Source: Escherichia coli (GTDB lineage Bacteria; Pseudomonadota; Gammaproteobacteria; Enterobacterales; Enterobacteriaceae). From it: a stretch of 64,000 nucleotides of DNA. Of this stretch, positions 40,101-43,100 are shown one piece after another; positions within the stretch are counted from its first letter, which is position 1; each line of letters starts with the position of its first letter. The position numbers are program-made. Where the stretch lies: assembly GCF_029227855.1 (NCBI RefSeq), contig NZ_CP074357.1. The stretch is one strand, 5' to 3'.

Positions 40101-43100
40101 TTGTTCCTTAATTTTCGGGGCTGACAATGAAAATGCCCAGCTCAGCCCCCGGCACGAGTTCTGTATATTTCAGGCTCAGCTTCCGTTGGTTGGACGGGCC
40201 CTGGCTGTTTTCAGGAGCCCAGTCAGAGAGCGTTTTTAATTGAGGTATGTTGCCTGCTGCGAAAATGGGCAAGGATGCTTTTACTACTGAATAATCAGTC
40301 TCAGCATATTTATTCCCGTTTCGTTCCTGCCCTTCAGGCCTAAATGCAAAAATGTGAGCAATCGGAACAGGGAAAGAGTTAGTTCGACAAAGGCGATAAG
40401 ATTCGCCCTGCTTCAGTGGGTGAAATTCAAGACGGTGTAAAGCCTTATCGATATTAGACACGACATTCAAATTGGTAGTTGCTACATTTTTTACTTCTGA
40501 GGCTCTCCTGCGCTCCAACAAACTCACAAGTTGCTCTGCTGTTTTAACTTCCTGGTTTCGGTTTAGCCGCCATGAAAAAGTAACTTTTTTAAGCTGGGAC
40601 TTGATGAAAAGGACATTTCTTGTTGAGTGCATAGCGACAAGGCCCGGGAGCTTCTTGTGCACTTTATCAAAACGGACATTCTTTTTATTATCGATACGCC
40701 TCATTGCCGCAGCAAAATCATTTTTTGCTTCATTTATAGATGTGATCAAGCTTTCGAGAAGATCTGCTCTTTCTGGGACAATGATAAGACCCGGGTATTT
40801 AGTGGTCACTTTGGTGGAATCATGACTTAATGACTCTATGTCATCCACACAGATGTCAGTAAGTGCCTGAATAATTTCCTCAACCGAAGCATCGTCTTTA
40901 ACACTAACCCTGATGGGTTTAACCTGCTTCAGTCGCTCTTCTGTTCGAGATACGGTGGAGACAGTCATCAGGTTTGCCATCAGCGGGGGGGTGTTCGAAA
41001 GAAAACACTTAAGCGAGTCGATACGTTCCAGAATCTGGTCACGAAAATAGGGCAAATCGTCATAACTCATACGTTTCTCCAGGCTCATGTTATTTCAAAT
41101 CAATTTTGCTGCCCTGGCTGACCTTGCAGAACATAAATGTCATGTAAACCTCTAAAGAAGTCATTTTGAAACAGCTTTCACAGCATGCGATTTATGTTCG
41201 ATAGGGCTCATGAACAAAGGATGATAATGGAGACGCCATGGATAGTGGATAGTCTTACCCACCTGGGTGATCCGATTGAGGCGAAAACGACCATTTATAC
41301 AGTCAACTGACCAAAGCCCGGGAGAAACTAACCTCTTCCAGCGGTAAAAAGAGAAACCTGCAACACAGAGGTCATGCTCCAGGAAATGTTGAGTTTCGAC
41401 GACGCGAACTTTTATCAAAAACCCCAGCATTGGCGAAAACCAGATCAACAACCATGTTGGCGGCAGGATGACTTTGTTCAGGAGATGATCTGTCATAAGC
41501 AAGGCAGATAACATCAGAAAACTGATAGTCAACCACAGGGCCATCCAACCGGCCCATACGCGGCTCTGACAGGGTTTCCATTCGAGAAGAAAAAGTTTTT
41601 TATGCATTCTGCCCCGCCTAATTTTAATGTATTGCCGAAGTATGCTGCATCATGATGGTGGTGCGGGGAAAGATTTCAAACTTCCACAATTCTGAAGCCG
41701 TGTTCCAACCATGAAAGATCCCGTCTCCACAGCGAGTGTTAAAAGCAAGAATTTCATCCCTGACCTGGTAAGCGAGCACTTCTGGCATATCAATAAATTC
41801 AGGTAAGGAAAGAAGAATCCCATGGATAACTTCTCCGGTTAACTTACTCATAACCTCTTCCTCAGACAGGGCAGCGTCCGGGAACAAACACGACGGAAGT
41901 GAAAAACAACATAGGTCAAGACCAAGAGCAGCCCTTCCTGCGTCGTAGCCTTCTTCATTAACGACAAAACGAAAGAATTTTTCAGCCTCACCCAGTAATG
42001 TTGACGGTCCTTCAGACGGAACTTCAATACCACTGAAGACTTTATCGGTCCAGTTGGTAAATGGACTGGTGAAAACCCAACAAATTAAGGATAACGCCAG
42101 CTCTTCCTTAAACATACGTTCAGTGCCGGTTGTTCTGGAAAGTTGCTTTTGAGTACTCATGTTTTACCTGTTGCATGAAATTATTGATGTTATATAAACA
42201 CAACCGGCATTTTATCTAATAGGTTTGAAAACACTAAAAATCGCAAATGCTGGTACCTTTCTGTTTTAAGAGATTTTCAAGGTAAAGTGAGGCGAGATCA
42301 ATTGGCTGGTTCTCTTCAAGACAGGCTCGCACAAGATCTTCAATAGAGACCGAATCAACCCCCCTTCCCTGTAAAATTTCTTTAGCAGATGCCAGCGTTT
42401 TATGAACGCTTCGACTTAGTTGTAATCTGACTTGTGTGCGGGTATCAAAAAGACAATCTTCTGTGACACTTTGTGAAACGGTTCTACTCATTGAAAAATC
42501 ACTCCATTTCTGGGATCGAATGAAAATTAACAGCTATAGATGTATCAGGTTTCCCATTTTCTACGATACTCAACCACGTACGCGCTGAGATTTGTTGTTC
42601 ACAGACGAGTATGTAACCTGTTCCCTGTTGATGATGTAGCTCAAGAGCTTTTAGGATAGGCCCTGAATGAGGTCCGAGAGCATCACGCGTGTGAATAAGC
42701 GTTTGCTCTGGCAATACGTTGCTAAGCATAGACAGCAGAACATTACGCTCATCCTCATTATCCGACAAAACAAGAATTATACGAAAACCCGTTTTTATAC
42801 GAAATCTGATCTCTGAAACTAACTTTCTTAATCTTAATTTATATATGACCAGGCGGAATCGAGTCATCAGTAAAGAAACCACTGTGAAGATAACGATTAC
42901 TGCGCCATATTTTGACCTGTAGAACCACCAGTTAAGGCCTCCAGCAACTATCAGGATTAACATTAAAATTAAACTCCCATAGAAAAAAAGTGCTGGGTAG
43001 CGAGTTGTCTTTCCTTCAATTAGTGCTGAGGCAAATATCAAAATGGATATTCCGTAAATTACCCAGTCAAAAATACTTTCTCCAATCATTCTTTAGTGAA

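What the first reader, a model, noticed from the sequence alone, without database searches (positions are those of the whole stretch)
40108..41070. Possible plasmid-encoded Tus-like replication terminus-binding protein
The central region of this 320-aa protein resembles the Tus signature around the LPGL segment. A plasmid-borne Tus homologue would imply Ter-site-directed fork arrest on the plasmid or interference with chromosomal termination. The similarity is recalled from memory and is weak.
Basis: inference. Interest (0 to 1): 0.4.

Follow-up and report, generated by a model that had tools for sequence, protein, structure and literature searches.

The report
Plasmid-borne Tus replication terminator homologue
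The gene is a genuine but very divergent relative of the E. coli replication-fork-stopping protein Tus, sitting in the conserved backbone of IncHI2 resistance plasmids; it is already annotated as such in over a thousand plasmids, although nobody has found the DNA site it binds.

Summary
The ORF at 40108-41070 (- strand, 320 aa) is real. It is a Tus-family protein: Pfam PF05472 E=4.6e-19, 69 bits against a cut-off of 22. Its AlphaFold model matches only E. coli Tus in the PDB (E=2.8e-16, TM 0.65, full length). The residues of the E. coli cytosine-lock pocket are kept (F140/H144/G149 = F134/H138/G143). The window is IncHI2 plasmid backbone, 100% identical to pAPEC-O1-R and many others.

It is not new. 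PGAP already names this gene "DNA replication terminus site-binding protein" in more than 1,100 plasmid records. An IncHI2 paper calls it tus, and Galli et al. 2019 describe plasmid-borne tus genes as the likely source of chromosomal tus.

The cognate Ter site is still missing. There is no E. coli-type Ter in the window or next to tus. One marginal core match lies elsewhere on the plasmid and is not conserved in IncHI1. Fork arrest is therefore inferred, not shown.

Side findings:
- tus sits in a synteny block conserved down to 25% Tus identity.
- That block includes a tyrosine recombinase preceded by a LexA-box-like sequence.
- A 15-bp palindrome, gAAAAGTWACTTTTc, occurs about 42 times per plasmid, once inside tus.

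The parts
40108..41070 (-). tus-like gene: 320-aa Tus-family (PF05472) replication terminus site-binding protein homologue
   Evidence: ORF. Pfam E=4.6e-19. Full-length Tus fold. Identical to PGAP CDS WP_000119427.1.
41077..41080 (-). Shine-Dalgarno GGAG, 6 nt upstream of the ATG at 41070
   Evidence: Read from the sequence. It supports the 320-aa start over the 326-aa start at 41088.
40639..40674 (-). Codons for RFDKVHKKLPGL (residues 133-144), counterpart of E. coli Tus R139-L150, which holds cytosine-lock pocket residues F140, H144 and G149
   Evidence: phmmer alignment to 1ECR. Column mapping in a 29-sequence family alignment. Invariant in the IncHI clade.
40577..40587 (.). Copy of the plasmid-wide palindrome AAAGTWACTTT inside tus; it encodes the clade-invariant KKVTF
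   Evidence: The DNA motif is kept in four lineages at 52-65% protein identity.
39193..40098 (-). Conserved ORF (301 aa) immediately downstream of tus. The N-terminal ~150 aa are predicted to have an RNase H-like fold (weak evidence).
   Evidence: Present after tus in all related loci. 23% identity, E=5e-10, to the Klebsiella plasmid counterpart. Model pLDDT 65, and the top Foldseek hits are all RNase HI at E about 7e-3.
38913..39263 (-). Conserved small ORF (about 114 aa, hydrophobic), last gene of the tus array
41161..42160 (-). Two conserved upstream ORFs (148 aa and 178 aa) in the same co-directional array as tus; no family match
37716..38891 (+). Tyrosine recombinase, convergent with the tus array and a conserved neighbour
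   Evidence: Pfam Phage_integrase E=1.8e-13. 37% identity to the Klebsiella plasmid neighbour.
37680..37699 (+). LexA-box-like sequence ACCTGTAATTAAAACCAGTG (CTG-N10-CAG), just downstream of TGcTAAAAT, which I read as an extended -10 element, and upstream of the recombinase start
   Evidence: Counterparts occur in L008, L009 and L015 (TACTGTTTTTATAACCAGTA). Assigned by eye against the LexA consensus from general knowledge, not scored.
37333..37545 (-). hha (Hha/YmoA family), divergent from the recombinase; part of the conserved block

Best explanation
This is a true, intact, highly diverged member of the Tus family, about 18% identical to E. coli Tus. It belongs to the core backbone of IncHI2 plasmids.

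Most likely mechanism (inferred): it binds as a monomer to one or a few plasmid-specific asymmetric Ter sites. It blocks a DnaB-driven fork arriving from one side, and it captures a flipped base in a pocket homologous to the E. coli Tus C(6) lock (F134/H138/G143). The sequence of those sites is not the E. coli GTTGTAAC-core type and has not been identified.

On a 180-350 kb plasmid with two or three replicons, such a private Tus/Ter pair would confine fork fusion. It would also prevent over-replication or rolling-circle run-on without touching the host chromosome's Ter sites.

Shown here: family membership, fold, pocket residues, conservation and genomic context. Inferred: DNA binding, polarity and biological role.
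For: Family and fold:
- Pfam PF05472 at 69 bits against a cut-off of 22.
- A profile search of 1.84 billion representatives returns 215 clusters, nearly all about 300 aa, some matched end to end.
- hhalign against E. coli Tus gives 93% probability over 256 columns.
- The AF2 model has pLDDT 79.7 and pTM 0.74.
- Foldseek against the PDB finds four Tus chains at E about 1e-16, TM 0.63-0.65, about 325 aligned columns; the next hit is at E=0.19.

Functional residues kept (E. coli to this protein): F140 to F134, H144 to H138, G149 to G143, E49 to E45, K89 to K87, R232 to R229, W172 to W167, P238 to P236.

Purifying selection:
- 85 invariant columns across homologues at 46-90% identity.
- 1,108 plasmid records carry the gene at 99% identity or more and full length.

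Literature:
- tus is named on the IncHI2 plasmid pSTM6-275 (PMC5923156).
- Plasmid-borne tus genes are described, with the proposal that chromosomal tus was domesticated from plasmids (PMC6549158).

In R27 (IncHI1) the detrended cumulative GC skew has its minimum at 55.9 kb, which is the RepHI1B position, and its maximum at 149.9 kb. tus lies at 162 kb, in the terminus-proximal part of the plasmid.
Against: - No cognate site was found. There is no E. coli-type Ter in the 64-kb window.
- No Ter lies adjacent to tus in five related loci, although the same matrix scores E. coli TerB at 29.2.
- On the whole of pAPEC-O1-R there is one core match, at 169,199. It scores 17.9, against a mean shuffle maximum of 16.8. 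It has T instead of the essential G at position 6, and it is absent from the syntenic R27 region.
- k-mer and BLAST comparisons of IncHI2 with IncHI1 found no shared asymmetric low-copy motif.
- E. coli R198, a major DNA contact, aligns with V193.
- In pAPEC-O1-R the GC-skew maximum (157.7 kb) is far from tus (58 kb).
- NCBIfam Tus equivalog cut-offs are not reached: 53 bits against 323.
- No experimental study of an IncHI Tus was found.
Confidence: 0.6

Rival explanations
1. The protein has a Tus fold but is used for something other than classical polar termination. Possibilities include a site-specific roadblock or regulator, or the protein that binds the abundant palindrome gAAAAGTWACTTTTc, which would mark or organise the plasmid backbone.
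For: - The palindrome is the only DNA word shared by all seven diverged versions of the tus block, down to 25% Tus identity.
- Every tus gene examined contains one copy.
- The motif is hugely over-represented: 10 in the window against 0.05 expected, 42 in pAPEC-O1-R, 42 in R27, and 12 in a reduced Klebsiella plasmid that keeps few IncHI genes but keeps the tus block.
- It shares GTAACT with the E. coli Ter core.
- No canonical Ter site was found.
Against: - The motif is perfectly symmetric with no flank asymmetry. Its central A/T orientation is random on both GC-skew-defined halves of R27: 10 A and 12 T on one half, 10 A and 10 T on the other, counted by hand from the list. That fits a dimeric binder, not a monomeric asymmetric Tus.
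- Forty-two barriers per plasmid would be incompatible with replication.
- Some 20 other conserved proteins of unknown function are equally eligible as the binder.
- The C(6)-lock pocket residues are conserved, which argues for the classical mechanism.
Confidence: 0.2
2. The plasmid Tus, or the host Tus, acts on the single E. coli-like Ter core GATATTTAAGTTGTAACTAATAT. This site lies about 2 kb from the oriT repeats in the IncHI2 Tra1 region, outside this window. It is probably the 'potential ter site' mentioned in the pSTM6-275 paper.
For: - The 13-nt sequence AAGTTGTAACTAA matches the TerI/TerJ cores at pAPEC-O1-R 169,199, in an intergenic region.
- The surrounding 161 bp is present in 959 plasmid records, all typed as conjugative.
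- The literature mentions a potential ter site close to oriT.
Against: - The matrix score is within the range of shuffled sequence (17.9 against a mean maximum of 16.8 and a largest value of 21.0).
- Position 6 is T, not the G whose partner C(6) forms the lock.
- The site is not conserved in the syntenic R27 region, although R27 keeps tus.
- A protein 18% identical to E. coli Tus is unlikely to read the same 23-bp site.
- A single site oriented this way, 39 kb from RepHI2, does not make a fork trap.
Confidence: 0.1
3. The plasmid protein targets the host chromosome's Ter sites or termination machinery.
For: Only the family relationship.
Against: Identity to E. coli Tus is 18% and the R198 contact is not conserved. 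The gene is embedded in a plasmid-maintenance-type block that has been conserved for a long evolutionary time, which suggests a cis-acting plasmid function.
Confidence: 0.04

Closest known systems
E. coli Tus (tus, b1610; PDB 1ECR, 2I06, 4XR0-3) with its Ter sites
   Same: Same Pfam family and a similar length (320 aa here, 309 aa in E. coli). Same two-domain fold over the whole chain (TM 0.65). Conserved RFxxVHxxLPGL segment carrying the C(6)-lock pocket residues. Conserved K89, E49, R232, W172 and P238 equivalents.
   Different: Only 18% identity. It falls far below the NCBIfam equivalog cut-offs. R198 is not conserved. It is plasmid-borne and sits inside an operon-like array. There is no adjacent TerB-like autoregulatory site and no GTTGTAAC-core Ter sites on the replicon apart from one marginal match.
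'Mobile', plasmid-borne tus genes of gammaproteobacteria (Galli et al. 2019, PMC6549158)
   Same: This gene belongs to that category: a PF05472 gene on a conjugative plasmid of Enterobacterales. tblastn finds Tus-family genes on 2,769 PLSDB records: IncHI2, IncHI1, about 1,300 Klebsiella plasmids, Pseudoalteromonas, Providencia and others.
   Different: In the passages I read, that paper treats the plasmid genes phylogenetically and reports no cognate Ter site or function for a plasmid gene.
Ter sites of plasmids R6K, R1 and R100, which use the host Tus (recalled from general knowledge, not checked here)
   Same: Precedent for Tus/Ter-mediated polar fork arrest on plasmids, said to limit multimerisation and rolling-circle run-on.
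   Different: Those plasmids carry Ter sites but no tus. This plasmid carries tus but no recognisable Ter.
Bacillus subtilis RTP/Ter (recalled from general knowledge)
   Same: An analogous function: polar replication fork arrest.
   Different: An unrelated fold (dimeric winged helix). There was no match to it here.

Membership tests
Tus / Ter-binding protein family (Pfam PF05472) | Profile match above the curated gathering threshold | tested here: met
   69 bits against 22, E=4.6e-19, covering residues 20-217. All close homologues carry precomputed PF05472 hits.
Tus / Ter-binding protein family (Pfam PF05472) | Full-length two-domain Tus fold | tested here: met
   AF2 model pLDDT 79.7, pTM 0.74. 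Foldseek against the PDB: 1ECR_A E=2.8e-16, TM 0.65/0.67, 324 columns. Only Tus chains are significant.
Tus / Ter-binding protein family (Pfam PF05472) | Cytosine C(6) lock pocket (E. coli I79, F140, H144, G149; residue roles recalled from the Tus-Ter lock literature) | tested here: met
   F134, H138 and G143 are identical to E. coli. I79 aligns with V75, a conservative change. F134, H138 and G143 are invariant in the IncHI clade.
Tus / Ter-binding protein family (Pfam PF05472) | Conserved DNA-contact residues (K89, R198, R232, A173, Q250; roles recalled from the literature) | tested here: inconclusive
   K89 to K87 and R232 to R229 are kept. R198 to V193, A173 to R168 and Q250 to Y260 are not. 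The alignment in these loops is uncertain at 18% identity.
Chromosomal Tus orthologue (NCBIfam equivalogs NF002810, TIGR02648) | Score above the equivalog cut-off | tested here: not met
   53.1 bits against 323, and 20.9 bits against 178.3. It is a family member but not an equivalog of the enterobacterial chromosomal protein.
Tus/Ter replication fork trap (system) | Cognate 23-bp Ter sites with a GTTGTAAC core on the replicon, in opposed orientations | tested here: not met
   None in the window. One marginal core match on the whole of pAPEC-O1-R, lacking G6 and not conserved in R27. A diverged Ter sequence cannot be excluded.
Tus/Ter replication fork trap (system) | A Ter site immediately upstream of tus (TerB-type autoregulation) | tested here: not met
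   The positive control, TerB, scores 29.2 in the E. coli locus. The best score in five plasmid tus loci is 10.6 or lower. In the IncHI1-type loci the tus start overlaps the preceding ORF.
Tus/Ter replication fork trap (system) | Sequence-specific DNA binding and polar arrest of DnaB-driven forks | not testable with these tools
   This needs EMSA or SPR, ChIP-seq, 2-D gels or marker-frequency analysis.

The most novel reading that the evidence does not exclude
The IncHI Tus homologue is not a classical terminator. Instead it is the protein that reads the 15-bp palindrome gAAAAGTWACTTTTc. That motif is present about 42 times per IncHI1 or IncHI2 plasmid and once inside every tus gene examined, and it is the only DNA word shared by all diverged versions of the tus block. 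If so, a Tus-fold protein would have a many-site, non-polar role such as backbone marking, organisation or regulation. A milder version is much more likely: the protein is a terminator with a private Ter sequence unrelated to GTTGTAAC.
Probability: 0.08. Interest if true: 0.7.

Novelty: already known. Interest (0 to 1): 0.25.

Why it matters
IncHI plasmids are major carriers of multidrug, colistin (mcr-1) and metal resistance, and their replication biology is poorly known. A plasmid-private Tus/Ter pair would be the presumed ancestral state from which the textbook E. coli fork trap was domesticated (Galli et al. 2019). Finding its Ter site and phenotype would test what a fork trap is for. As a sequence annotation, however, nothing here is new. 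The gene is already named in public records, and this analysis mainly confirms that name with stronger evidence. It also shows that the expected E. coli-type Ter sites are absent.

Tried and rejected
1. E. coli Ter consensus and core searches in the window found nothing.
2. A position weight matrix built from TerA-J (sequences recalled from memory) was run on the whole of pAPEC-O1-R and R27. One marginal IncHI2 hit is not conserved in R27, and the R27 top hit lies in accessory DNA.
3. The same matrix was run on five tus loci, with E. coli TerB as a positive control. No tus-adjacent Ter was found.
4. Shared repeated k-mers between IncHI2 and IncHI1 gave only the symmetric palindrome, the partition iterons, the oriT repeats and one inverted pair.
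5. blastn-short for isolated conserved blocks outside long alignments gave no asymmetric candidate.
6. Words shared by seven diverged tus blocks were only the palindrome and one coding 11-mer.
7. GC skew was used to place the terminus. It is suggestive in R27 and uninformative in pAPEC-O1-R, where accessory DNA and gene orientation confound it.
8. The palindrome was tested as a polar Ter-like site and rejected: the flanks are symmetric and the centre orientation is random.
9. Intergenic regions around the recombinase and hha were checked for a Ter-like site. They look instead like a promoter with a LexA-box-like sequence and a GC-rich hairpin.
10. Literature searches for functional work on an IncHI Tus found only annotation-level mentions.
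11. Pseudogene or chance similarity was rejected, given the conservation and the profile and fold statistics.

Full report
**Observation.** The - strand carries an ORF ending at 40108, with in-frame ATGs at 41070 (320 aa) and 41088 (326 aa). The 41070 start is the real one. It has GGAG 6 nt upstream (sequence). All homologues start there, and PGAP annotates the same 963-nt CDS. Residues 133-144, RFDKVHKKLPGL, align with E. coli Tus RFEWVHRHLPGL in a plain phmmer alignment to PDB 1ECR (E=0.08 for the single sequence).

**Family.** Profile methods make the relationship unambiguous.
- Pfam PF05472 (Ter) scores E=4.6e-19, 69 bits against a gathering score of 22, over residues 20-217.
- A profile of ten homologues was searched against 1.84 billion representative proteins. 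It returns 215 clusters at E<=1e-3, almost all 290-320 aa, and several are matched end to end.
- hhalign against E. coli K-12 Tus, taken from NC_000913.3, aligns 256 columns at 93% probability.
- An AlphaFold2 model (pLDDT 79.7, pTM 0.74) matches four E. coli Tus chains in the PDB at E about 1e-16, TM 0.63-0.67, over about 325 columns. The next hit is at E=0.19. The C-terminal domain, which Pfam did not cover, is therefore Tus-like too.
- The NCBIfam equivalogs for chromosomal Tus are hit only far below their cut-offs: 53 bits against 323. This is a distant family member (18% identity), not an orthologue of the enterobacterial protein.

**Mechanism-relevant residues.** A 29-sequence alignment spanning the family was mapped to E. 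coli numbering. The residues that form the pocket for the flipped C(6) in the Tus-Ter lock are kept: F140 to F134, H144 to H138, G149 to G143, and I79 to V75. (The roles of these residues come from established knowledge of the Tus-Ter lock.) Also kept are E49 to E45, K89 to K87, R232 to R229, W172 to W167 and P238 to P236. R198 aligns with V193. Within the IncHI clade, at 46-90% identity, 85 columns are invariant, including R133, F134, H138, P142, G143 and L144.

**Where it is and whether it is known.**
- The window is IncHI2 backbone. A 3.5-kb query is 100% identical to pAPEC-O1-R, and 1,122 PLSDB records cover at least 80% of it.
- The window is collinear with pAPEC-O1-R 34.9-98.9 kb, apart from indels.
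- The gene is already annotated "DNA replication terminus site-binding protein" (WP_000119427.1).
- tblastn finds Tus-family genes on 2,769 plasmid records: 1,108 at 99% or more (IncHI2), a group at about 59% that includes IncHI1 plasmids, and about 1,300 Klebsiella plasmids at about 25%.
- Galli et al. 2019 report plasmid-borne "mobile" tus genes and propose that chromosomal tus was domesticated from plasmids (PMC6549158).
- I found no functional study of an IncHI Tus.

**Search for the cognate Ter.**
- No E. coli-type Ter or core is in the window.
- I assembled pAPEC-O1-R (241 kb) and R27 (180 kb). I scanned both with a matrix built from TerA-J.
- The only core-containing hit in pAPEC-O1-R is GATATTTAAGTTGTAACTAATAT at 169,199 (+ strand). 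It is intergenic, about 2 kb from the oriT-region repeats. It scores 17.9, against a mean shuffle maximum of 16.8, and has T rather than G at position 6.
- That site is absent from the syntenic R27 region. The surrounding DNA is common to 959 plasmid records, all typed as conjugative.
- The same matrix scores TerB at 29.2 upstream of E. coli tus, but 10.6 or lower anywhere in five plasmid tus loci.
- k-mer, BLAST and seven-way word comparisons gave no shared asymmetric low-copy motif.
- In R27 the detrended cumulative GC skew has its minimum at RepHI1B (55.9 kb) and its maximum at 149.9 kb, 12 kb from tus (162 kb). In pAPEC-O1-R the maximum (157.7 kb) is far from tus. This evidence is weak and is confounded by gene orientation and accessory DNA.

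**Neighbourhood.** tus lies in a co-directional - strand array. The same order of genes recurs in several loci:
- small ORFs, then tus, then a 252-301-aa ORF, then a 106-114-aa ORF;
- a convergent tyrosine recombinase;
- hha in most of the loci (it is not seen in L021), and a CoiA_N-like gene.

This order is found in IncHI1, in a Photorhabdus plasmid, in two metagenomic lineages, in a Klebsiella IncFIB plasmid (Tus 25% identical) and in two further clades. The downstream ORFs and the recombinases are demonstrably homologous across these loci.
- The downstream ORF's model (pLDDT 65) gives only RNase HI-type top hits at E about 7e-3. That suggests an RNase H-like fold, weakly.
- Upstream of the recombinase start is a block I read as a promoter: an extended -10 element (TGcTAAAAT) followed by a CTG-N10-CAG sequence resembling a LexA box. 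In the Klebsiella plasmid the box is a perfect TACTG-N10-CAGTA.

**A palindrome seen on the way.**
- AAAGTWACTTT (extended form gAAAAGTWACTTTTc) occurs 10 times in the window against 0.05 expected.
- It occurs 42 times in each of pAPEC-O1-R and R27, and 12 times in the Klebsiella plasmid.
- It is the only DNA word shared by all seven diverged tus blocks.
- One copy lies inside every tus gene examined. In the IncHI clade that copy encodes the invariant KKVTF, and the DNA motif is preserved through synonymous variation around it.
- It is strictly symmetric, and its centre base shows no orientation bias along R27 (my hand count). It is therefore not a polar Ter-type site. A dimeric binder is the simplest reading.
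- It was not found in the searched literature.

**Mechanism and rivals.**
- Best-supported view (0.6): a functional Tus-type monomeric terminator with a private, still unidentified Ter sequence, confining fork fusion on a multi-replicon plasmid.
- A Tus-fold protein with another DNA-binding role, possibly at the palindrome (0.2).
- Action at the single E. coli-like site near oriT (0.1).
- Interference with host Ter sites (0.04).
- Chance similarity is excluded.

**Verdict.** But the gene is already annotated and has been noted in the literature. The novelty class is "already known" and interest is modest. What remains open is the identity of the Ter site and the biological role. The side observations, namely the palindrome, the LexA-box-like sequence upstream of the recombinase and the conserved tus block, are more intriguing than the finding itself.

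Noticed in passing
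window 6980, 16111, 20704, 37132, 40577, 44770, 48341, 52086, 58532, 59211 (11-nt cores): A symmetric palindrome AAAGTWACTTT (extended form gAAAAGTWACTTTTc) occurs 10 times in the window against 0.05 expected. It occurs 42 times in each of pAPEC-O1-R and R27, and 12 times in a Klebsiella IncFIB plasmid. Copies lie both inside genes (for example inside tus) and between ORFs, and copies near tus sit at corresponding positions in related loci. It is the only DNA word shared by seven diverged tus blocks. The binding protein is unknown, and the motif was not found in the literature search.
   Followed up: partly
window 37680-37699: A LexA-box-like sequence (CTG-N10-CAG) lies just downstream of TGcTAAAAT, which I read as an extended -10 element, and upstream of the tyrosine recombinase gene (37716-38891). 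Counterparts are in IncHI1, Photorhabdus and Klebsiella plasmids, and the Klebsiella one is a perfect TACTG-N10-CAGTA. This suggests an SOS-controlled recombinase. It was assigned by eye and not scored.
   Followed up: partly
window 39193-40098 (- strand): The conserved ORF immediately downstream of tus has no family match. Its AF2 model (pLDDT 65) gives only RNase HI-type top hits (E about 7e-3, target TM up to 0.64) for the N-terminal ~150 residues. Whether the catalytic acidic residues are kept was not resolved.
   Followed up: partly
window ~34600-36403: An IS21-family element is present here: a 340-aa transposase (NCBIfam transpos_IS21, E=5e-96) followed by a second ORF. The window has 1,959 bp more than pAPEC-O1-R at this point. 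The element probably splits the CoiA_N-like gene, whose N-terminal part is the ORF at 36430-37002.
   Followed up: partly
window 41071-41160; compare L008, L009 and L010 5403-6011, and L019 9394-10008: Related plasmids have a ~202-aa ORF (weak DUF2913 match) that overlaps the tus start. In this IncHI2 window there is no counterpart at that position, only a 90-bp gap.
   Followed up: no
pAPEC-O1-R (NC_009838.1) 169199-169221, outside the window (L005 19199-19221): The only E. coli-like Ter core on the IncHI2 plasmid is GATATTTAAGTTGTAACTAATAT. It is intergenic, about 2 kb from the oriT-region repeats, has T at position 6, and is absent from R27. It is probably the 'potential ter site' mentioned in PMC5923156.
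   Followed up: partly
window ~37300-54400 and loci L008-L010, L015, L019, L021: An ~15-20 kb synteny block is conserved across IncHI-like plasmids down to 25% Tus identity. Its order is: DUF3150, VWA, Toprim/DUF7146, a series of unknown ORFs, tus, the ORF with the RNase H-like fold, a small ORF, a convergent tyrosine recombinase, hha, and a CoiA_N-like gene. The Klebsiella locus keeps only the tus-proximal part.
   Followed up: partly
R27 (NC_002305.1), whole plasmid: The detrended cumulative GC-skew minimum falls at RepHI1B (55.9 kb) and the maximum at 149.9 kb, nearly diametrically opposite. This is consistent with bidirectional replication ending about 12 kb from tus.
   Followed up: no
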